From positions 5,184,001 through 5,248,000 of the forward strand of contig CBDCJO010000002.1 in the NCBI GenBank assembly GCA_965217865.1: a DNA stretch of 64,000 bases, read 5' to 3'. The notes beneath the pieces are model-generated. The model saw only the letters and a list, made by a program, of their open reading frames with translations. It did not search any database and was not told the origin of the DNA. Shown in pieces: positions 1 to 12,923 of this stretch (positions are counted from its first letter, which is position 1; every line of letters starts with the position of its first letter). This DNA comes from Candidatus Latescibacterota bacterium (GTDB lineage: Bacteria > Latescibacterota > UBA2968 > SICM01). The position numbers and the translations under genes are program-made.

Positions 1-1809
1 AAGATCGATGGGTCCGCAATCTACAACGGTAGGGCCTATTCTCTTTTTTCCAACGAGTTCGCTGACGGCACCATCGATCCACACGGATACCGGTACCTCG
101 AAATGTTTCATCTGGAGGGGCTGATCCCGGTATGGACGTATGCGCTGGCCGATGCGCGCCTGGAAAAATACGTCTGGATGGCACACGGTCACAATACGAC
201 CTATATCGTGTATTCCCTGAATCGAGCATCAAATCCGCTCTCTCTGCGGCTGACCCCCCTGTGTACGTACCGCGACTATCACAGCCACACGCACGGGAGT
301 TGGCCTTTAGGCGTATCGTCTGTCGCCGGAGGGTTTGAAATCAAGGCCTTCGACAACGCCCAGCCCTACCGGATCCTGGCCGGTCCGGGTGATTTTAGCC
401 CCGATGAAGCCTGGCACTGGAATTTCAAACATCGGACCGAGAGCGCACGCGGACTTGACGACACAGAGGACCTGTTCGCACCAGGCCTTTTTTATGCAAC
501 CCTCCATCCAGGTGAGACACTCACCCTTATCTGTTCGACCGAGCGGATCGAGCCCCATACTGGAAACGAACCCCTCCGGCAGGAGCGGGAACGTCAGGCA
601 GCTCTTTTACGGGATTTATCGCCAGATGATCCGGGATGGATCAATCAGCTGACACTGGCGGCGGACCAATTTATCGTGCAGCGGGAGGCCGGGAGAGATG
701 TGAAACAAAGGGGCGCGACCGTCATCGCCGGCTATCCCTGGTTTGGAGACTGGGGACGGGATACCATGATCGCCTTGCCTGGCTTGACCCTCGCGACGAA
801 ACGACCCGAGGTCGGTGCCAGCATCCTGCGAACTTTTTCTGAACACGTCACCCGTGGGATGTTACCCAACCGCTTCCCTGATGTTGGTGAGGCCCCGGAT
901 TACAATACGGTTGATGCCACGCTCTGGTACTTCCACGCGATCCATAGGCACTTGCTCCACACCGATGACATAACTCTGGCTGAAGAACTCTACCCGACTC
1001 TGGTGGACATCATCGACTGGCACGAACGGGGCACCCGTTTTGACATTCACGTGGATCCTGAGGATGGCCTGCTGTTTGCCGGTGAGGAAGGAACTCAACT
1101 GACGTGGATGGATGCCAAAGTGGACGACTGGGTGGTCACCCCCCGAATCGGCAAGCCGGTCGAGATCAATGCTCTATGGCACAATGCCCTGAGGGTGACT
1201 GCAGATCTTTCGAAGCGGCTGAACAAAGCGGAAGCTGCGGATCGCTACCACGAACAGGCGGACCGGGTTGCCGCCAGCTTTAAAAAGGCCTTCTGGTTCG
1301 AGGCGGGCGGGTATCTATATGACGTGATCGACGGTCCGGATGGAGACACTGTTGAAACGGGGAAGCGGTGCGACCGGAGCCTGCGACCGAACCAGATTTT
1401 CGCAGTCTCTCTGCCTTTCGCCTTGCTGGACGACGATCAGGCAAGGGCCGTGGTCGATGCCTGCGACCGTCATCTGCTGACTTCTCACGGTTTACGCAGC
1501 CTGGCGGATGGAGACCCGGCATACGTCGGGCACTACGGTGGTGATCCGCTCCAACGCGATGGGGCATACCATCGAGGGACGGTCTGGGCCTGGCTGCTCG
1601 GACCGTTCATCGCCGCCCACTATCGGGTTTACGGCGATGTTGCGGTTGCCCGGTCTTTCTTGAGGGGCCTTGAACACCAGCTGGGGGACGCCTGCCTGGG
1701 CTCGATCAGCGAAATCTTTGACGGGGATCCCCCAAACACGCCGGAGGGATGTTTTGCCCAGGCCTGGAGTGTGTCGGAAGTGCTGAGCGTATGGCGGGAG
1801 CTGACCTGA
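1..1809 (+). CDS. Glycogen debranching enzyme / amylo-alpha-1,6-glucosidase (5' end outside window)
   Basis: Frame open from base 1; motifs IAGYPWFGDWGRDTMI, TWMDAK, RPNQ, AYHRGTVW, AQAWS. Confidence 0.93.
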   Translation, partial: KIDGSAIYNGRAYSLFSNEFADGTIDPHGYRYLEMFHLEGLIPVWTYALADARLEKYVWMAHGHNTTYIVYSLNRASNPLSLRLTPLCTYRDYHSHTHGSWPLGVSSVAGGFEIKAFDNAQPYRILAGPGDFSPDEAWHWNFKHRTESARGLDDTEDLFAPGLFYATLHPGETLTLICSTERIEPHTGNEPLRQERERQAALLRDLSPDDPGWINQLTLAADQFIVQREAGRDVKQRGATVIAGYPWFGDWGRDTMIALPGLTLATKRPEVGASILRTFSEHVTRGMLPNRFPDVGEAPDYNTVDATLWYFHAIHRHLLHTDDITLAEELYPTLVDIIDWHERGTRFDIHVDPEDGLLFAGEEGTQLTWMDAKVDDWVVTPRIGKPVEINALWHNALRVTADLSKRLNKAEAADRYHEQADRVAASFKKAFWFEAGGYLYDVIDGPDGDTVETGKRCDRSLRPNQIFAVSLPFALLDDDQARAVVDACDRHLLTSHGLRSLADGDPAYVGHYGGDPLQRDGAYHRGTVWAWLLGPFIAAHYRVYGDVAVARSFLRGLEHQLGDACLGSISEIFDGDPPNTPEGCFAQAWSVSEVLSVWRELT

Positions 1810-1957: not shown

Positions 1958-2970
1958 ATGCAAACAATAGAGCGATATGATGCGATCATCATCGGCACGG
2001 GACAATCCGGACCTTCCCTGGCAGCGGACCTGGCCGACGCAGGAAAACGGGTGGCGATTATCGAGCGGGGGCGGTTCGGGGGCACCTGCGTGAATACCGG
2101 CAGCACCTGATCATCATCGGCGGGAGCTATATCGGGTTGGAGTTCGCTCAAATGTATCGGCGATTTGGCAGCGAGGTGACAGTCGTCGACAGGAATTCAC
2201 ACTTGATCGCAAGGGATGATGAAGACATTTCCGATGCGGTCCGCGACATCGTGGAAAACGAGGGGATCAACATCCGGCTAGAGGCTGAATGCATTACGGG
2301 GGAGAATCGGGGAGATCAGGTCCTGGTCAAACTCGATTGCGAGCGTGGGGACAGGGCGGTGGCCGGATCGCATCTCCTGCTTGCGGTTGGGAGGACGCCC
2401 AATACGCAAGACCTGGGGTTGGAAAAGGCGGGGATCGAAGTCGACGAGCGCGGTTACATTGTCGTGGATGACCAGCTCCGCACCAGCGTGCCCGGGGTCT
2501 GGGCGTTGGGCGACTGCAACGGGAAGGGGGCTTTTACCCACACTTCATACAACGATTACGAGATCGTTGCCGCCAATCTGCTCGAGGAAGATCCGCGCCG
2601 TGTGAGCGACCGTATCCTCGCCTATGCCCTGTACATCGACCCGCCGTTGGGACGCGTCGGGATGACGGAAGCCGAGGTCCGTAAGTCCGGGCGCAAAGCC
2701 CTGATCGGGAAAAGGCCGATGACGAAGGTGGCCCGGGCGGTGGAGAAGGGAGAAACACAGGGTTTTATGAAAATCCTGATAGATGCCGAGACCAAGGAGA
2801 TTCTGGGTGCGGCGATACTGGGAATCGGGGGGGACGAGATCATCCATTCGATCCTCGATATCATGTATGCCAGGGCACCATACACGGTGATCCAGCGAGC
2901 CATGCACATCCACCCTACGGTGTCAGAACTGATCCCGACTATGCTGGGCGAGCTCAAACCCCTGGAATAA
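1958..2970 (+). pseudogene. FAD-dependent pyridine nucleotide-disulfide oxidoreductase (mercuric reductase/RclA-like) with internal deletion and frameshift
   Basis: 1958-2100 encodes MQTIERYDAIIIGTGQSG...GGTCVNTG, then joins out of frame at about 2100 to QHLIIIGGSYIGLEFAQM; C-terminal HIHPTVSE intact; second redox Cys region absent. Confidence 0.85.
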
Positions 2971-3038
2971 CGCACATCGGGTCCGGAAAACGTGCAACTT
3001 TCAGGATTTCAAAGCGTTTATACTTCAAATCACTCTTG

Positions 3039-3080
3039 TTGTGAACGATCGCGCAAATGTTGTGCTGAAAATCACACAAC
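3039..3080. promoter_or_regulatory. Candidate transcription-factor operators upstream of selenoprotein cluster
   Basis: TTGTGAA-CGAT-CGCGCAA (3039-3056) and inverted repeat GTTGTG-N10-CACAAC (3059-3080) in an AT-rich intergenic region. Confidence 0.35.
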
Positions 3081-3315
3081 CATATAAGTGATTGTTAACA
3101 AAAAAATAACGAATTTAAAGATCTTAAAATTGTGTGATTTAAAACTTTAGGAGAAGATCCACGACTCAGGATGGTCTGGCTTTTCCTTTATGGTTTTTCG
3201 TATAAATAGTATAGTTTTCAAATAGATGAACTCCACCTACTCCTTCTTCTGACGAAATGTCGGAATCCGGCATAGTTTTTCCATTCTGTATTCACTTTCC
3301 AATTATCTCGGGAAG

Positions 3316-4485
3316 GTGGTGTTCGTCAACTTCATCGGGTGGAGTTGACCGCATTGCATCACGGACGGTCCGCCCGTGGAAAAGAACATCTGGCAGAGAT
3401 TTAAGGATGAGGAGTTCCAGGCCCTGGGCGTCGAGATATGGGATGGGGGGGCCGCAGATGTGAATAGATTTTTCGTTGGGCTTACGAAAACAACTTACCC
3501 CGTCCTGTTAAAGGGAGGCCGCGTTGGGGCCCAATATGGTGTGGATCGTGCCACTTACATGGTAATGGACCAGGAGGGCATCGTTCGTTACCGGTCGGAA
3601 GGGAGACTCGGGCAACGCTACGACGAAGAGACTCTGATTTCAGTTATTCAGATTCTGTTGACCCCGGCGAATACCCCCCCGCGTATCGTCAATCCAATAC
3701 CGGACCAGGGCGGGGTCGGGATCAATACCATCAGGATCGACCTGGAAGGTTTCGTAGAGGACACGGAGGAGGGTCCCGCCAATCTGAACTGGCACGCAGA
3801 TGGGTTCGATCCCGAACTGATCATTGTCGGAGGACAGATGTCTGCAGGTCCACTGAAGTTCACACCCAGGCAGGATGCGCTGGGTCGAAATTTCAACATC
3901 TTGTTGATCGTGACGGACAGCAAGGGGGCCACGGCGGAGCAAGAGATCGCGCTTCGTCGGCTTCCGGCCGTTTTGTCCATCTCATCGGAAAATTTGAACT
4001 TCGGAGATGTGTTTGTGGGTTCCTCCCAGACCCTGAAGTTGAAGGTGTCGAACGAAGCTGAATCCGACGGGGAGGACCTGACTGTCGATCTGGCTTCCGT
4101 CAGTCCGACCTTCAGCGTTCCGGGCTCATCGGTGACGGTTCCTGCGGGAGAGTCCCGGGAGATCTCGATCGTGTATCGGCCGACAGAGGCGATATCATCC
4201 TCCGGAGAGCTGACGTTTTTGACGAACGATCCGGACCGAGAGTCGTTTGGAGTGTCTTTAACGGGGGTGGGATTGACCCCTCTGGATCTCCAGGTGGCCG
4301 TCACGGATTCGGATTTCGACGGGGACGGAAGGATCGACTTCGACGATTTCTTTTTGTTCGCAGGGGCGTTCGGGGGAACGAATCCTCTGTTCGACCTGGA
4401 CAGAAGCGGTCGCGTGGACCTGGACGATTTGTTTATCTTCGCGACTGATTTCGGGAAGATGGCAAAACCAGACGATGGACGATAA
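3316..4485 (+). CDS. Probable selenoprotein: UxxC redoxin + Ig-like + ASH-like Ig + dockerin/EF-hand-like tail (5'-truncated paralog; start uncertain)
   Basis: In-frame YSLSNYLGKVVFVNFIGWS-TGA(3346-3348)-PHCITDGPPVEKNIW continues into ORF 3376-4485; homology to the paralog starts at 3289; upstream in-frame stop at 3250. Confidence 0.8.
3346..3378 (+). promoter_or_regulatory. Bacterial SECIS-like hairpin
   Basis: UGA + 11 nt + CACGGAC-GGUCC-GCCCGUG (one mismatch). Confidence 0.7.
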
Positions 4486-4564
4486 AACCCTTCCGCTCAT
4501 CCCCACCGGAATACAGAATACAGAAGACAGGAGTCAGAAGAAAACCTTAATTCAAATCAGTCGG

Positions 4565-4720
4565 CGAGACATGAGAGTTCAGACGTGAGACGTGAAACGG
4601 CAAAAGGCAGTAGCAGGTGGCAGTGGCAGGAATGGCAAAGGCAGGGGTCAGAAGTCGGAGGTCGGGGAAATCGTAGCTTCGACGGAGTTTATCCTGAGCT
4701 AGTCGAAGGGCTCAGGACGT
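4565..4720 (+). repeat. Purine-rich oligomer tract followed by CTTCGAC...GCTCAGGAC REP-like element
   Basis: GTGAGACGTGAAAC, GGCAGTAGCAGGTGGCAG and GGTCAGAAGTCGGAGG units recur across the window. Confidence 0.75.
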
Positions 4721-4844
4721 GGCTTTCCCAGAACGGGAAGGGGAAAATGGCCGTTAATTTAGCAAAATGTCAACCACAAGGTCGGAGGAAATCGAAGATC
4801 GACTTTAGACCAGAACGAGTACCGATAAGGGAAAACGGTTCGGT

Positions 4845-6182
4845 ATGAAAAGGGTCATTTGGTTATTCATAGGGCTGGTCTTCTGGTCTGCAGGACCGAA
4901 CGCACCTGCCGTCTCCGCGGTGAGGGTTGGGGAAAACGCTCCGGATTTCACGTTGAAGGGGTTGGATAACAGGAATTATTCCCTGTCCGACTACCGTGGA
5001 AAGGTGGTGTTCGTCAACTTCTTCGGGTGGAACTGACCGCATTGTATAACGGACGGTCCGTCCGTTGAGAATAAAATCTGGCAGCGGTTTAAGGATCAGG
5101 AGTTTCAAGCCATCGGCGTTGATGTGTGGGACGGAAATCCGGATGGCGTAACGAAATTTTTCGTCGGGTTGACCAAGTCGACCTATCCGGTTCTAACCAA
5201 AGGCGGCCGGGTGGGGAGCCAGTACAGATTGGGCAACAATCACTTCATCGTTATCGATCAGGGGGGAGTTGTCCGATGGGTGTCGTCGGGAAGTCTTGGC
5301 AGTCGCTTCAATGAGAATGCCATCGTCTCCACCATCCAGTCTTTGCTTCCTCCTCCGAATACCCCACCAACCATCACCTCGTCGATTCCCGACCAGTCCG
5401 GTTCCGGGACAGAACCCATCGAGATCGACCTGGCTTCATTCGTTTCAGACGAAGAGGACGGCCCTCAAGATCTAATGTGGCGCGCCGAGGGATTCGATCC
5501 GGAGTTGATCGGGGTCACGGAAAATGGAACCGAAGGAGGGATGCTGAGTTTCACACCCAAGCCTGAGGTGCTGGGCCAGGATATTTCGGTTCTGTTGATC
5601 GTATCGGATACTCAGGGGGGTACCGCGGAGCAGTCGATCATCCTTCGGTGGACATTCCTGCCCGCGGTCCTGTCGGTCTCGATGGAGGATCTTAACTTCG
5701 GGAGCGTTTACGTCGGTTCCTCTCGGACTCTAAATTTGATCGTATCGAATGGAGCAGGTCCGGGTGGGGAGGACCTGGAAATTAGACCCTCCTCCGAGAG
5801 TTCGTCCTTCAGTATCGGGGACTCGTCCGTCTCGGTTCCGGCCGGAGAATCCCGGGAGATCTCAATCGTGTACCGGCCGATTGACGAGGTCATGTCTACC
5901 CACGAATTGACGTTCTTGACGAACGATCCCGAACACGAAGTGTTCGGGGTGTCCTTAACGGGATCGGGTCTGCCCCCGCTGGACATCCAGGTTGCTGTTT
6001 CGGATACTGATTTCGATGGGGACGGGAGGATCGATTTCGACGATTTCTTTATGTTCGCGGCGGCCTTCGGAGGAACGGATCCGGTTTTTGATCTGAATAA
6101 GAGCGGCCGTGTGGACTTCGACGATTTTTTTATCTTTGCGACTGACTTTGGAAAAATTGCGAAACCAGACGATGGACCATGA
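4845..6182 (+). CDS. Probable exported selenoprotein (445 aa, Sec64): signal peptide + AhpC/TSA redoxin (UPHC) + Ig-like + ASH-like Ig + dockerin/EF-hand-like tail
   Basis: ORFs 4845-5036 and 5124-6182 share a frame, separated only by TGA 5034-5036: APDFTLKGLDNRNYSLSDYRGKVVFVNFFGWN-U-PHC; tail DFDGDGRIDFDDFF...DLNKSGRVDFDDFF. Confidence 0.9.
5034..5066 (+). promoter_or_regulatory. Bacterial SECIS-like hairpin
   Basis: UGA + 11 nt + perfect stem AACGGAC-GGUCC-GUCCGUU. Confidence 0.8.
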
Positions 6183-6350
6183 AAGGCTGTCAAACGTGAG
6201 ACGTGAAACGGTAAAAGGCAGTAGCAGTAGCATGTGGCAGCAACATTCATTTGCCGGGAGAAGTAAAGTGATTTATATTATCGATAACCTCCTTCCCGTT
6301 CCTCATACCCTTGGGATTTCAAAATAGCCGGGTATCAGGAGGGCCGTCAA

Positions 6351-7259
6351 ATGCGGACAATGTTGATCGCTATTTCGACGATTCTGATCGGGTTCTCGGT
6401 TGCACAAGCATCCCCGTGGACATTGCCCAGGGGGGAGTTTTACGCACGGGGAACCGCCCTGGGTTCCCGATCCCGATGGCAGTTCAATAACGACTCGAAC
6501 AGGGTGAAGTTTCTGAATAATGGGCTCAGTCGAATGGTCGGGACTGCCGTCGACGGATCCTTCGGACTTCGTGATGACCTGATGGTCTCGATCGGAGTTC
6601 CCGTCATATTCTACGGTCTCCGGGATGATGATATCCAGGAGGAGGGTTTGAGCTTGGGGGATATCCGAATTTCAAGCCGATATCGTTTGTTTTCCAAAGG
6701 CCTGGTCGTGTCCCTGGAGGCGGGGGTGAAATTTCCCTCGGCCACACAGGTGGATCCTGCACGGGTACAGGTTGGTGAGGGGCAATACGACTTCGACGGC
6801 CTCGTTTCCTTCGGGTTTCTCTGGCCTTCAAAGGAAGGGTATTCAAGTATTGATGCGGGATATCGCATCCGCCGGAGGAGTGAGAAGACTGCGTTTAAAC
6901 CGGGAAATGAATTTATCTACCGGTTCGAAAGCGGATATCAGGCTGGCGACCGGGTTTCAATGCGGTTGAGCCTGGACGGATTCAAGAGTGAGATGGGGAA
7001 TACGGAGGTGTTCGGTGTTGCCGTTCCTACCCGCTTCTCAAATCGAAATCTCCTGGCGGTTGTGCCCGGCATCACACTGGCTGTAAAGGATAAACTTGGC
7101 CTGGATATGAACATCAACATCCCGGTTCTGGGACGGAACTATTATGCCGGAAGTCAGTTTTTTATCGGCCTTTCGTATAACAGCCTCGGGGTCCGGGCGT
7201 CGCTCAATCAATCTACCATCTCCGCTCCCCAGGGAGGATCGTGCTGCAGGATCCAGTAA
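6351..7259 (+). CDS. Outer-membrane beta-barrel protein (MetA-pathway/transporter-like) with C-terminal GGSCCRIQ tail
   Basis: Signal peptide (AQA cleavage), SLGDIRI motif, alternating amphipathic beta strands, SD GGAGG. Confidence 0.7.
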   Translation: MRTMLIAISTILIGFSVAQASPWTLPRGEFYARGTALGSRSRWQFNNDSNRVKFLNNGLSRMVGTAVDGSFGLRDDLMVSIGVPVIFYGLRDDDIQEEGLSLGDIRISSRYRLFSKGLVVSLEAGVKFPSATQVDPARVQVGEGQYDFDGLVSFGFLWPSKEGYSSIDAGYRIRRRSEKTAFKPGNEFIYRFESGYQAGDRVSMRLSLDGFKSEMGNTEVFGVAVPTRFSNRNLLAVVPGITLAVKDKLGLDMNINIPVLGRNYYAGSQFFIGLSYNSLGVRASLNQSTISAPQGGSCCRIQ

Positions 7260-7315
7260 TCGGAAGGATTCCGGAGAAAATTTGTAGAAGGCAATTCATC
7301 AGATCGGAGGTTATT

Positions 7316-7843
7316 GTGAAGTTTCCAAAGGTGATGGTGATTCTTCTTTTAATCGGGATGTTCTCCGTGCTTGGGGCACCTGTCTGGGCAAAGCCGTCGG
7401 TCTCCCGGGGGGATACGCTCACGGATTTCTCACTGAAGAGCATCGACGGCAAGGCCTTCCGACTGAGTGAAACCTATGGCAATAAAAAGGGACTCATCCT
7501 GACGGTGGGTGCGAGCTGGTGAGGGACCTGCCGGGCGGAGGTCTCCATCCTGAAAGATGTTTATAAGAGTTATACTCCAAAGAATATCGAGATGCTGTAT
7601 ATCAGCGTGGAGAGCAGGGAAAAAGCATCCGCTTACGCGAAGAAGAAAGAACTTCCCTATACCGTGCTTGTTGACGAGAATGCGGCGGTTGCGAAGAAAC
7701 TGGGTGTCTCGGCCATCCCCGCCCATTTCATACTCGATGCAGAGGGAAAGGTCCTCTTCAGCAATGTCGGAAAGCTCAAGAACCACGAAAAGTTGCTGAA
7801 CGAGCTGGTGGCGGAATTAGAAGCCGATAAGGAAAAGGGCTAA
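7316..7843 (+). CDS. Probable exported TlpA/ResA-like selenoprotein (175 aa, Sec69, W-U-G-T-C)
   Basis: SD GGAGG + GTG 7316; signal peptide; DFSLKSIDGK; GASW-TGA(7520-7522)-GTCRAEV in frame with ORF 7592-7843; cis-Pro motif AIP..FILDAEG. Confidence 0.9.
7520..7552 (+). promoter_or_regulatory. SECIS-like hairpin
   Basis: GGGCGGA-GGUC-UCCAUCC (7533-7550), GGUC loop 18 nt after UGA; an alternative fold GGGACCU/AGGUCUC is also possible. Confidence 0.55.
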
Positions 7844-7867
7844 CCCGCATTCCTGCGTCTCCTTTCG

Positions 7868-7922
7868 AAAAAAAAGGGTTGTTGATCTCAGGCTGAACGG
7901 CCGGATGAACGCCCTTTTTTTT
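7868..7922 (+). terminator. Intrinsic (probably bidirectional) terminator closing selenoprotein cluster
   Basis: A-run-GGGT...GCCC-T8 imperfect hairpin. Confidence 0.65.
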
Positions 7923-8060
7923 GTGTGTGACGAAGGTCCGTTTTTACATAAGGTTTGAGTGAAAGGTGTTATATTCTGGTTAGCCGAAGCTCTTCAACTA
8001 TTCAGATATCGATGTCGTGGCCTTTGGCCCTTACAGATAAACTTGCAGGAGGACGCGAAA

Positions 8061-11713: not shown

Positions 11714-11770
11714 TGGACTTGACCCGGTTTCGTGGATACCTTATTACTTGGCAGAAAGGAGGATGCTACG

Positions 11771-12066
11771 ATGCCGAGGTCACATTCGCCGTATCCACCG
11801 GAGTTCAAGCGGCAGATTGTAGAACTGGTGCGAGCGGGTCGCACGCCCCATGAGTTGTCCCGTGAGTTCGAGCCGTCGGCCCAGGCGATCCGGATCTGGA
11901 TGAGGGCCTCCGCAGTGACGGTCTGATCACCGAGGAGCGGGAGGAGATCAGACGACTGCGCCGCGAGAATAGGCAGTTGCGACAGGAGCGGGAGATCCTT
12001 GCAAAAGCCGCGGCCTGGTTCGCTCGGGAGACCAACTCGGTGCCAGGGGAGTCTACGAGTTCGTGA
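11771..12066 (+). pseudogene. IS3 OrfA with small deletion/frameshift at about 11893
   Basis: YPPEFKRQIVELVRAG...SAQAIR then shifted frame DLDEGLRSDGL...EILAKAAAWFARE. Confidence 0.8.
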
Positions 12067-12923
12067 AAGCCAATCAGGCCTTCTATAAAGTAGCCACGAT
12101 GTGCCGGGTCCTGGAAGTCTCCACCAGTGGGTACTACGCGTGGCTCAAGCGGCCGCTGTCGGCACGAGCGCAGGCCGATGTGGCTCTGACGGAACGGATC
12201 GTGAAGATTCACAAGTGTTCTGATGGCACCTACGGTGTCCCGCGCATATACGAGGAGCTTGTAGCCGAGGGGGAGCGGATCGGTCGCAAGCGCGTTGCGC
12301 GGTTGATGCGTGCTGCAGGCCTGGAGGGCGTAAGTCGTCGCAAACGGCATCGAACCACCTACCGTGATCGCGATGGGCGCGTCGCTGCTGACCTGGTCAA
12401 TCGAGATTTCACGGCTAACGGGCCAGACCAGCTCTGGGTAGCCGACATCACTTACATCAGTACGTGGGCCGGCTTCCTGTATCTCGCGGTCGTTGTGGAC
12501 GCCTGGAGCCGCCGCGTCGTTGGCTGGGCGATGGCGACCCATCTGCGCGCCGAGCTGGTGCTCGAGGCGTTGAATATGGCGCTCTGGCAACGACAGCCGG
12601 AAGCCGTCATCCATCACTCCGACCAGGGATGTCAGTACACCTCCATTGCCTTCGGTCTACGGTGCCGCAAGGCCGGTGTCCGGCCCTCTATGGGCTCCAC
12701 CGGTGACTGCTACGACAACGCGTTATGCGAGAGCTTCTTCGCCACGCTCGAATGCGAACGCCTGGATCGCCGAAACTACCGCACACAGGCCGAAGCCCGG
12801 ATGTCCGTATTTCAATACATCGAGGGCTGGTACAACTCCCATCGGCGACACTCAGCACTCGGATATCTCTCTCCAATGAACTTTGAGCAGACCTCCAGCG
12901 CTGTTGCCCATGAAGCCGAATGA
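12063..12923 (+). CDS. IS3 OrfB transposase (integrase core)
   Basis: WVADITY, HHSDQGCQY, DNALCESFF, YNSHRRHSALGY. Confidence 0.95.
   Translation: MKANQAFYKVATMCRVLEVSTSGYYAWLKRPLSARAQADVALTERIVKIHKCSDGTYGVPRIYEELVAEGERIGRKRVARLMRAAGLEGVSRRKRHRTTYRDRDGRVAADLVNRDFTANGPDQLWVADITYISTWAGFLYLAVVVDAWSRRVVGWAMATHLRAELVLEALNMALWQRQPEAVIHHSDQGCQYTSIAFGLRCRKAGVRPSMGSTGDCYDNALCESFFATLECERLDRRNYRTQAEARMSVFQYIEGWYNSHRRHSALGYLSPMNFEQTSSAVAHEAE

What the first reader, a model, noticed from the sequence alone, without database searches (positions are those of the whole stretch)
3346..5066. Compensatory synonymous change supports a SECIS hairpin
Seen: both paralogs have a stem beginning exactly 11 nt after UGA with a GGUCC loop. 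The outer pair is A-U in one (ATA...GTT) and C-G in the other (ATC...GTG), and both changes are at silent third positions. The third gene has a GGUC loop at almost the same distance. Known: the E. coli fdhF SECIS starts 11 nt after UGA and has a GGUC-containing apical loop bound by SelB. Inference: RNA structure is under selection.
Basis: partly seen in the sequence, partly recalled or inferred. Interest (0 to 1): 0.7.

Follow-up and report, generated by a model that had tools for sequence, protein, structure and literature searches.

The report
Selenocysteine hairpin real; cited proof weak

Summary
The outer +12/+30 pair is C-G in A and A-U in B, at silent sites.

That pair is poor evidence. 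Two such changes keep pairing 45% of the time by codon usage; it is C·U in B's closest paralog and pairs in only 26 of 110 UGA homologs.

The SECIS conclusion holds on other grounds. The genome has selA, selB, selD and tRNA-Sec. A SECIS-type hairpin passes my filter in 92 of 110 UGA homologs (20 expected from synonymous recoding) and 0 of 5 cysteine members. The stem register slides between clades; phylogeny-aware covariation is not significant.

Gene A lacks its start here through a polymorphic 179-bp deletion; other samples carry the longer allele. Verdict: new members of a known kind. The scan noted similar UxxC/SECIS genes in other genomes.

The parts
3288..3295 (+). 8-bp sequence at the junction of a 179-bp deletion that removes the 5' end (inferred ribosome-binding site, start codon, leader, first strands) of gene A; present twice in the long allele
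   Evidence: in runs X2 and X4 a 231-nt record joins 3266-3295 to 3288-3317 beside a 52-nt record of the short form (depths 15.4/15.0 and 2.4/4.4); X10 record 1 is the long form; X1 record 1 spans 2800-4525 in the short form; arithmetic
3289..4485 (+). Gene A, 5'-truncated allele: AhpC/TSA-type thioredoxin-fold domain with UxxC, then Ig-like/ASH domain and EF-hand/dockerin-like tail
   Evidence: PF00578 28.3 bits and PF15780 45.3 bits, both over cut-off
3346..3348 (+). In-frame UGA of gene A at the first Cys position of the CxxC motif (predicted Sec)
3360..3378 (+). Predicted SECIS hairpin of A: outer C-G pair 3360/3378, A·C mismatch 3365/3373, GGUCC loop 3367-3371
   Evidence: -8.3 kcal/mol, z -1.35 against synonymous recodings
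4845..6182 (+). Gene B, full length (445 aa with UGA read through): hydrophobic N-terminus (signal peptide judged by eye), AhpC/TSA domain with UxxC, Ig-like/ASH domain, EF-hand/dockerin-like tail
   Evidence: PF00578 spans residues 28-145 only when the UGA is read through
5034..5036 (+). In-frame UGA of gene B (residue 64, predicted Sec)
5048..5066 (+). Predicted SECIS hairpin of B: 7 pairs, outer A-U pair 5048/5066, GGUCC loop 5055-5059
   Evidence: -11.7 kcal/mol, z -2.27 against synonymous recodings
6351..7259 (+). Neighbour gene, PF13557 family; same position in the G001 locus
7316..7843 (+). Gene C: ResA/TlpA-like redoxin with UxxC (start codon assumed); UGA at 7520-7522
   Evidence: UGA ortholog in G001
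7533..7550 (+). Predicted SECIS hairpin of C: GGUC loop 7540-7543 (+18..+21), one C·A mismatch that is a C-G pair in the G001 ortholog
   Evidence: -6.1 kcal/mol here, -11.5 in G001

Best explanation
The stem-loops 11 nt after the in-frame UGA codons of genes A, B and C are likely standard bacterial SECIS elements, which SelB would bind so that selenocysteine is inserted into the UxxC site of thioredoxin-fold redox proteins. Shown: the UGA sits at the conserved first Cys position, the genome encodes SelA, SelB, SelD and tRNA-Sec, and UGA-bearing homologs keep a G-rich-loop hairpin at this place while Cys-bearing ones mostly do not. Inferred: SelB binding to the apical loop, read-through, export and redox activity. 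Gene A in this window is likely a dead allele of a gene that is intact in other members of the population.
For: Machinery over curated cut-offs: selB, selA, selD (itself with a TGA), tRNA-Sec with UCA anticodon; SelB has both winged-helix domains. UGA conservation: 106 of 168 genomes of the phylum match the family profile and all but 4 of the listed matches carry one TGA (16 more not listed); among fetched loci 110 of 115 members have TGA and 5 a Cys codon. In distant full-length homologs the position is Cys in 204 of 214 scored domains. Folding against synonymous recoding of the same peptide: 103 of 110 more stable than their null mean, 92 of 110 pass the SECIS filter against 19.6 expected; among 28 representatives under 55% identity, 26 of 28 and 25 of 28 against 5.7; four downstream control windows give 2, 2, 8 and 4 of 28 against 3.3-5.7. 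Cys members 0 of 5 (Fisher p 0.0002); 28 mostly distant CxxC controls 0 of 28. Silent sites: +15 G in 65 of 70 fourfold codons (0.22 expected), +18 G in 52 of 58 (0.27), +21 U in 45 of 74 (0.17); +15 G in 105 of 110 UGA members and 1 of 5 Cys members. Three genomes hold tandem Cys and UGA paralogs; in G097 and G100 the Cys copy folds at -5.4 and -3.6 and fails the filter. Four of five unrelated in-genome selenoprotein candidates (AhpD-, OsmC-, UGSC-, DUF3179-type) also have a hairpin with G in the first two loop positions.
Against: No read-through, binding or expression data. The +12/+30 pair is at chance. RNAalifold finds no consensus structure on the 73-sequence alignment. The best family register (+13..16/+22..25) beats all 500 shuffles, but I chose it from the same data, and 17 of the 18 G-C swaps at +14/+24 come from one clade; independent pairs give 1 of 4, not significant. 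In long sequence context the predicted hairpin probability falls to 0.01 (A) and 0.04-0.07 (B). The G001 Cys paralog keeps the upper 5 pairs and the loop (-7.3, just under the filter). G+19 is invariant in Cys members too (5 of 5), so it is a protein constraint. SelD's local hairpin has a G-less loop, and gene C (-6.1) and E. coli fdhF (-5.7) fall short of -7.5 in my short window. The filter is loose: 319 of 3000 random TGA sites pass. Only 5 close Cys controls were found, and homologs are related.
Confidence: 0.92

Rival explanations
1. One reading: the +12/+30 pair itself is held by selection and changed by a compensatory double substitution between A and B.
For: Both states pair and both sites are silent. 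B uses the rare Ile codon ATA (10% of Ile codons). Removing the outer pair costs A 1.8 kcal/mol.
Against: Chance 0.35-0.45; C·U in paralog D and in the G001 UGA ortholog; paired in 26 of 110 members and 5 of 28 representatives; worth only 0.2 kcal/mol in B; independent pairs on the tree do not go together.
Confidence: 0.12
2. The hairpin is a by-product of the GC-rich codons needed for the small residues after the CxxC helix, plus shared ancestry, and is not itself selected.
For: Synonymous recodings pass the filter 5-19% of the time for A, B, D and the G001 copies; G+19 is fixed in Cys members too; the G001 Cys copy keeps the upper stem; no consensus fold.
Against: Recodings keep the peptide yet fold about 3 kcal/mol weaker; fourfold silent sites are nearly fixed only inside the hairpin; Cys paralogs in G097, G100 and G115 have lost the silent +15 G and fail the filter. 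The G001 case fits a remnant or gene conversion: its two paralogs still share 26 of 35 third positions downstream, so keeping 5 silent sites has p about 0.23.
Confidence: 0.05
3. The UGA is a true stop (pseudogene or split gene), or is read as Trp or Cys by a different genetic code.
For: Gene A is indeed broken at its 5' end in this window.
Against: TGA at one homologous codon in 110 of 115 members, aligned with Cys; TGA ends ordinary genes here, gene B among them; a tRNA-Sec with UCA anticodon is present, also in the 5 related genomes tested.
Confidence: 0.03

Closest known systems
E. coli fdhF SECIS (NC_000913.3; passage in PMC8659212)
   Same: Stem-loop 11 nt after UGA; G and U at +20/+21 (G23/U24 in E. 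coli numbering) in A, B and D; GGUC at +19..+22 in A and B.
   Different: No bulged U17 (+14 is a paired C in A and B); GC-rich uninterrupted stem; across the family +20 is G in only 57 of 110 and the stem register slides.
Bacterial SECIS consensus model (passages in PMC13188914: 3-9 nt loop, 4-16 bp upper stem, G in first two loop positions, 16-37 nt spacing, MFE <= -7.5)
   Same: A and B meet loop size, stem length, loop G, spacing and energy; 92 of 110 homologs pass my version of the filter.
   Different: Gene C gives -6.1 in a 26-nt window. My filter is not bSECISearch and lets the closing base count as the loop G.
Prx-like thiol:disulfide oxidoreductase (PF00578, UxxC) and Redoxin (PF08534, UxxC) selenoprotein families, Table 1 passages of PMC13188914
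   Same: PF00578 and PF08534 over cut-off for B and C, PF00578 for A, with UxxC.
   Different: A and B add Ig-like/ASH and EF-hand/dockerin-like domains; no NCBIfam model is reached over its cut-off, including ResA and the WAxxUGC seleno model.
Remnant SECIS-like structures in Cys homologs (passages in PMC1794560 and PMC13582414)
   Same: The G001 Cys paralog keeps the upper stem and loop; other Cys members show decay at silent sites.
   Different: Here Cys and UGA copies sit side by side in three genomes (G001, G097, G100).

Membership tests
Bacterial SECIS element | Lies just downstream of an in-frame UGA that aligns with a conserved Cys | tested here: met
Bacterial SECIS element | Host encodes SelA, SelB, SelD and tRNA-Sec | tested here: met
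Bacterial SECIS element | 3-9 nt apical loop, 4-16 bp upper stem, loop 16-37 nt from UGA, G in first two loop positions | tested here: met
   A, B and C; loops begin at +18 to +20
Bacterial SECIS element | MFE of -7.5 kcal/mol or lower | tested here: inconclusive
   A -8.3 and B -11.7 meet it; C -6.1 and the E. coli fdhF control -5.7 do not in my short window
Bacterial SECIS element | Kept in Sec genes, lost in Cys homologs | tested here: met
   92 of 110 against 0 of 5; one Cys copy keeps a remnant
Bacterial SECIS element | Base-pair covariation beyond phylogeny | tested here: inconclusive
   +12/+30 at chance; +14/+24 covaries in counts but rests on about three events, 1 of 4 independent pairs; R-scape not available
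Bacterial SECIS element | Binds SelB and directs UGA read-through | not testable with these tools
   needs a reporter or binding assay
E. coli fdhF-type SECIS | G23 and U24 in the apical loop | tested here: met
   +20 G and +21 U in A and B; PMC8659212 passage
E. coli fdhF-type SECIS | Bulged U17 in the 5' arm | tested here: not met
   +14 is a paired C in A and B; U at +14 in 1 of 74 homologs
UxxC Prx-like/Redoxin selenoproteins (PF00578, PF08534) | Pfam domain over cut-off spanning the UGA, with UxxC | tested here: met
UxxC Prx-like/Redoxin selenoproteins (PF00578, PF08534) | Thiol/selenol-disulfide oxidoreductase activity | not testable with these tools
   inferred from fold and motif
Rfam families | Match at gathering score | tested here: not met
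   three chance-level matches in 3000-8000, none at the hairpins

The most novel reading that the evidence does not exclude
A class-wide, multi-copy family of probably exported UxxC redoxin selenoproteins with no curated family model, found in relatives titled Candidatus Latescibacterota. Its SECIS keeps a GG loop at a fixed distance from UGA while the stem slides among several registers and lacks the E. coli U17 bulge. It has repeatedly produced side-by-side Sec and Cys paralogs whose hairpins decay to different degrees, a natural series for defining what a non-enterobacterial SelB reads.
Probability: 0.6. Interest if true: 0.45.

Novelty: new member of a known kind. Interest (0 to 1): 0.3.

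Why it matters
It shows that standard gene calling would split or drop genes A, B and C and about a hundred relatives, and it adds a probable surface-exported selenoprotein family to an uncultured lineage. It is also a clean caution: one compensatory-looking pair between two paralogs carries almost no information, whereas silent-site conservation and Sec-versus-Cys comparison do. The mechanism itself is textbook.

Tried and rejected
Rfam scan: nothing at the hairpins. Metagenome scan with B's domain gave only distant hits, best 40% over most of the domain; 7 distant TGA rows of other redoxin families (L016, L025, L035, L057, L058, L066, L073) were dropped before the counts. RNAalifold gave no consensus. 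The +14/+24 covariation looked strong but was set aside as proof after the tree test. A motif-free genome scan for read-through UGAs by coding score was too noisy (206 candidates, 130 printed), so five other selenoprotein candidates were picked by eye. The alignment A3 had no stretch conserved enough for a contig scan; the narrower A4 gave 12 loci. No RNA holder was listed among sequencing runs, which says nothing on expression. The promoter/terminator scan was at chance level. Earlier-findings look-ups by place and by sequence were empty. No structure prediction was run.

Full report
1. What is in the window. Reading TGA as U opens three redoxin frames: A (homology from 3289 to 4485, UGA 3346), B (4845-6182, UGA 5034) and C (7316-7843, UGA 7520). 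All have UxxC in an AhpC/TSA (PF00578) domain over the Pfam cut-off; for B the domain spans residues 28-145 only with read-through. A and B continue into Ig-like/ASH and EF-hand/dockerin-like domains. No NCBIfam model reaches its cut-off. B begins with a hydrophobic stretch that I read by eye as a signal peptide (inference; no predictor was run). The genome has selB, selA, selD and tRNA-Sec over curated cut-offs, the tRNA with anticodon UCA, and a third paralog D elsewhere, 89% identical to B. Of 12 related loci with record titles, 8 are titled Candidatus Latescibacterota, 2 carry Gemmatimonad labels and 2 only 'bacterium'.

2. The observation. The stems start at +12 (11-nt spacer), the loop is GGUCC at +19..+23, and the outer pair is C-G in A and A-U in B at Ile and Val third positions. 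Gene C has GGUC at +18..+21 and E. coli fdhF has GGUC at +19..+22. Against dinucleotide shuffles B is stable (z -2.25); A (0.20) and C (-0.82) are not. Pairing probabilities depend on the context folded: the outer pair is 0.91, 0.75 and 0.04 in B and 0.06, 0.82 and 0.01 in A for three window sizes.

3. The cited pair is not evidence. With genome codon usage a random Ile/Val codon pair pairs at +12/+30 with probability 0.35, and 0.45 if both sites changed from B's state; 40 of 63 same-residue codons elsewhere in the domain differ at the third position, so both changing is common. D and the G001 UGA ortholog have C·U there. On a protein tree built without the hairpin-coding residues, A, B, D and the two G001 copies form a starred clade (few columns, bootstrap not fully settled). 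+12 is C in three of the five and +30 is U in four, so the simplest history is a mismatched ancestor with one change in B and one in A (inference). In the 73-sequence alignment (71 distinct) the pair forms in 18 and fails in 53; the whole 7-bp register is 48.3% paired against 45.9% shuffled (17 of 500 shuffles as high), with covariation at shuffle level (113 of 500). In the larger set it pairs in 26 of 110.

4. The hairpin is nevertheless under selection. 106 of 168 genomes of the phylum match the family profile, and all but 4 of the listed matches have one TGA (16 matches not listed). I fetched only part of these; among fetched loci, 115 distinct members scored 95 bits or more, 110 with TGA and 5 with a Cys codon. 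In distant full-length proteins the position is Cys in 204 of 214 scored domains. I folded +11..+40 and compared it with synonymous recodings of the same peptide under local codon usage. 103 of 110 UGA members fold better than their null mean and 92 pass a SECIS filter modelled on the published consensus, against 19.6 expected. For 28 representatives under 55% identity the figures are 26 of 28 (sign test p 3e-6) and 25 against 5.7; four downstream windows give 2, 2, 8 and 4 against 3.3-5.7. Cys members pass 0 of 5 (Fisher p 0.0002), and an earlier set of 28 mostly distant CxxC proteins 0 of 28. Fourfold silent sites are nearly fixed inside the hairpin: +15 G 65 of 70 (0.22 expected), +18 G 52 of 58 (0.27), +24 G 50 of 70 (0.30), while +12 and +30 are near expectation. 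Two upstream sites (-3 and -18) are also skewed, on about 20 codons each, unexplained. Caveats: the window was chosen knowing the site, kin are not independent, the filter passes 319 of 3000 random TGA sites, and fdhF and gene C fall short of its energy limit in a similar window.

5. What is conserved is the loop position, not a register. RNAalifold finds no consensus. Individual folds put the loop or its closing base over +19 in 99 of 110 UGA members, but also in 4 of 5 Cys members. The stems pair in different registers in different clades. The commonest one (+13..16 with +22..25) is 74.6% paired against 63.9% shuffled, and +14/+24 shows 45 C-G, 17 G-C and 1 U-A. I picked that register from the same data, and the tree shows only 3 changes at +24 and 8 at +14, with 1 of 4 independent pairs going together. 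Covariation is thus suggestive, not shown; PMC11234323 (passages) warns of this phylogenetic effect.

6. Cys controls. G001 has the same gene order as the window, with a Cys paralog in A's place followed by a UGA paralog, the PF13557-like gene and the C ortholog. Its Cys copy keeps the upper five pairs and loop (-7.3). In G097 and G100 a Cys copy also lies directly before a UGA copy, and there, as in G115, the silent +15 G is gone and the fold is -5.4, -3.6 and -3.2. All these genomes have tRNA-Sec. The G001 paralogs share 26 of 35 third positions downstream, so a recent change or gene conversion can explain the remnant (inference); such remnants are described in PMC1794560 and PMC13582414 (passages).

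7. Other selenoprotein candidates in the genome. AhpD/CMD-, OsmC-, UGSC- and DUF3179-type genes with a UGA at a redox motif (the NCBIfam seleno models matched below cut-off on the partial sequences given) have local hairpins with G in the first two loop positions; the UGSC-type one has GGUC at +18..+21 like gene C. SelD's local hairpin has no loop G.

8. Gene A. Homology to B begins abruptly at 3289 and no start codon lies in frame after the upstream stop, apart from internal GTG/CTG. Public contigs show two alleles: a 52-nt record of the window's form and a 231-nt record linking 3266-3295 to 3288-3317, at depths 15.0/15.4 (X2) and 4.4/2.4 (X4); X10 has the long form and X1 the short. The difference is 179 bp between two copies of an 8-bp sequence. 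Loose ends in X7 end in a purine-rich, ribosome-binding-like stretch after 3295, and before 3288 translate in frame to 10 residues of which 5 match B's residues 35-44 (hand translation). 44 codons as in B would leave a 40-nt leader (hand arithmetic; one search printed 37 for 45 codons). X10 records covering A's hairpin show no difference from the window, so the A·C mismatch appears to stand in a population with the long allele; the full long allele was not read.

9. How it likely works. From established knowledge (PMC1794560 and PMC8659212, passages): SelB carrying Sec-tRNA binds the apical loop as the UGA reaches the A site and delivers Sec. Shown here: codon position, machinery, hairpin and its conservation pattern. 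Inferred: binding, read-through, export and oxidoreductase function. A and B have the E. coli G23/U24 loop bases but not the U17 bulge, so they fit the general bacterial SECIS model (PMC13188914, passages) and not the strict fdhF type.

10. Literature. Read as passages only: PMC13188914 (SECIS model; Table 1 rows for PF00578 and PF08534 UxxC families), PMC1794560, PMC13582414, PMC8659212, PMC11234323; other papers were seen as search listings. Six searches showed no paper on this particular family; the library lacks most subscription journals and I opened no supplements, where such proteins may be listed. The scan's notes list similar UxxC/SECIS genes in other genomes, unchecked by me.

11. 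Verdict. Real bacterial SECIS elements in new members of known UxxC redoxin selenoprotein families (confidence 0.92); the compensatory pair in the title is not supported (0.12). Interest 0.3.

Noticed in passing
window 3288-3295: Polymorphic 179-bp deletion between 8-bp direct repeats removes the start of gene A; both alleles co-occur at similar depth in runs X2 and X4.
   Followed up: partly
L178 (G001), L214 (G100), L215 (G097): A Cys-coded paralog lies directly upstream of a UGA-coded paralog in three genomes; possibly a selenium-independent backup (inference).
   Followed up: partly
window 4480-4850: The spacer between A and B is a mosaic of short dispersed repeats with dozens of copies in the genome; similar stretches appear near 6180-6250.
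   Followed up: no
window 4310-4460 and 6005-6160; genome-wide: The C-terminal EF-hand/dockerin-like tail occurs on dozens of proteins in this genome; it may be a lineage-specific export or anchoring tag.
   Followed up: no
window 1958-2970: A pyridine nucleotide-disulfide oxidoreductase-like gene (label from recalled motifs) is split near 2100-2137, apparently with an internal deletion and frame change.
   Followed up: no
L181, L182, L183, L184, L005: Further selenoprotein candidates in the genome: AhpD/CMD-type, OsmC-type, UGSC-type, DUF3179 and SelD; SelD's local hairpin lacks a loop G.
   Followed up: partly
window 3309-3345 against 4997-5033: Silent sites just upstream of the UGA are also unusually alike between A and B (5 of 5 same-residue codons identical), and family-wide at -3 and -18; not explained by the SECIS.
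   Followed up: no
L180 (G000:C2:3519000-3527000): Paralog D lies next to broken transposase-like frames and a DprA-like/phosphoribosyltransferase-like pair (labels recalled, not scanned).
   Followed up: no
L121 (G011): One family member has a TAG two codons before its TGA, likely a pseudogene that still has the hairpin.
   Followed up: no
window 11766-12923: IS3-type transposase frames (label recalled from the sequence).
   Followed up: no
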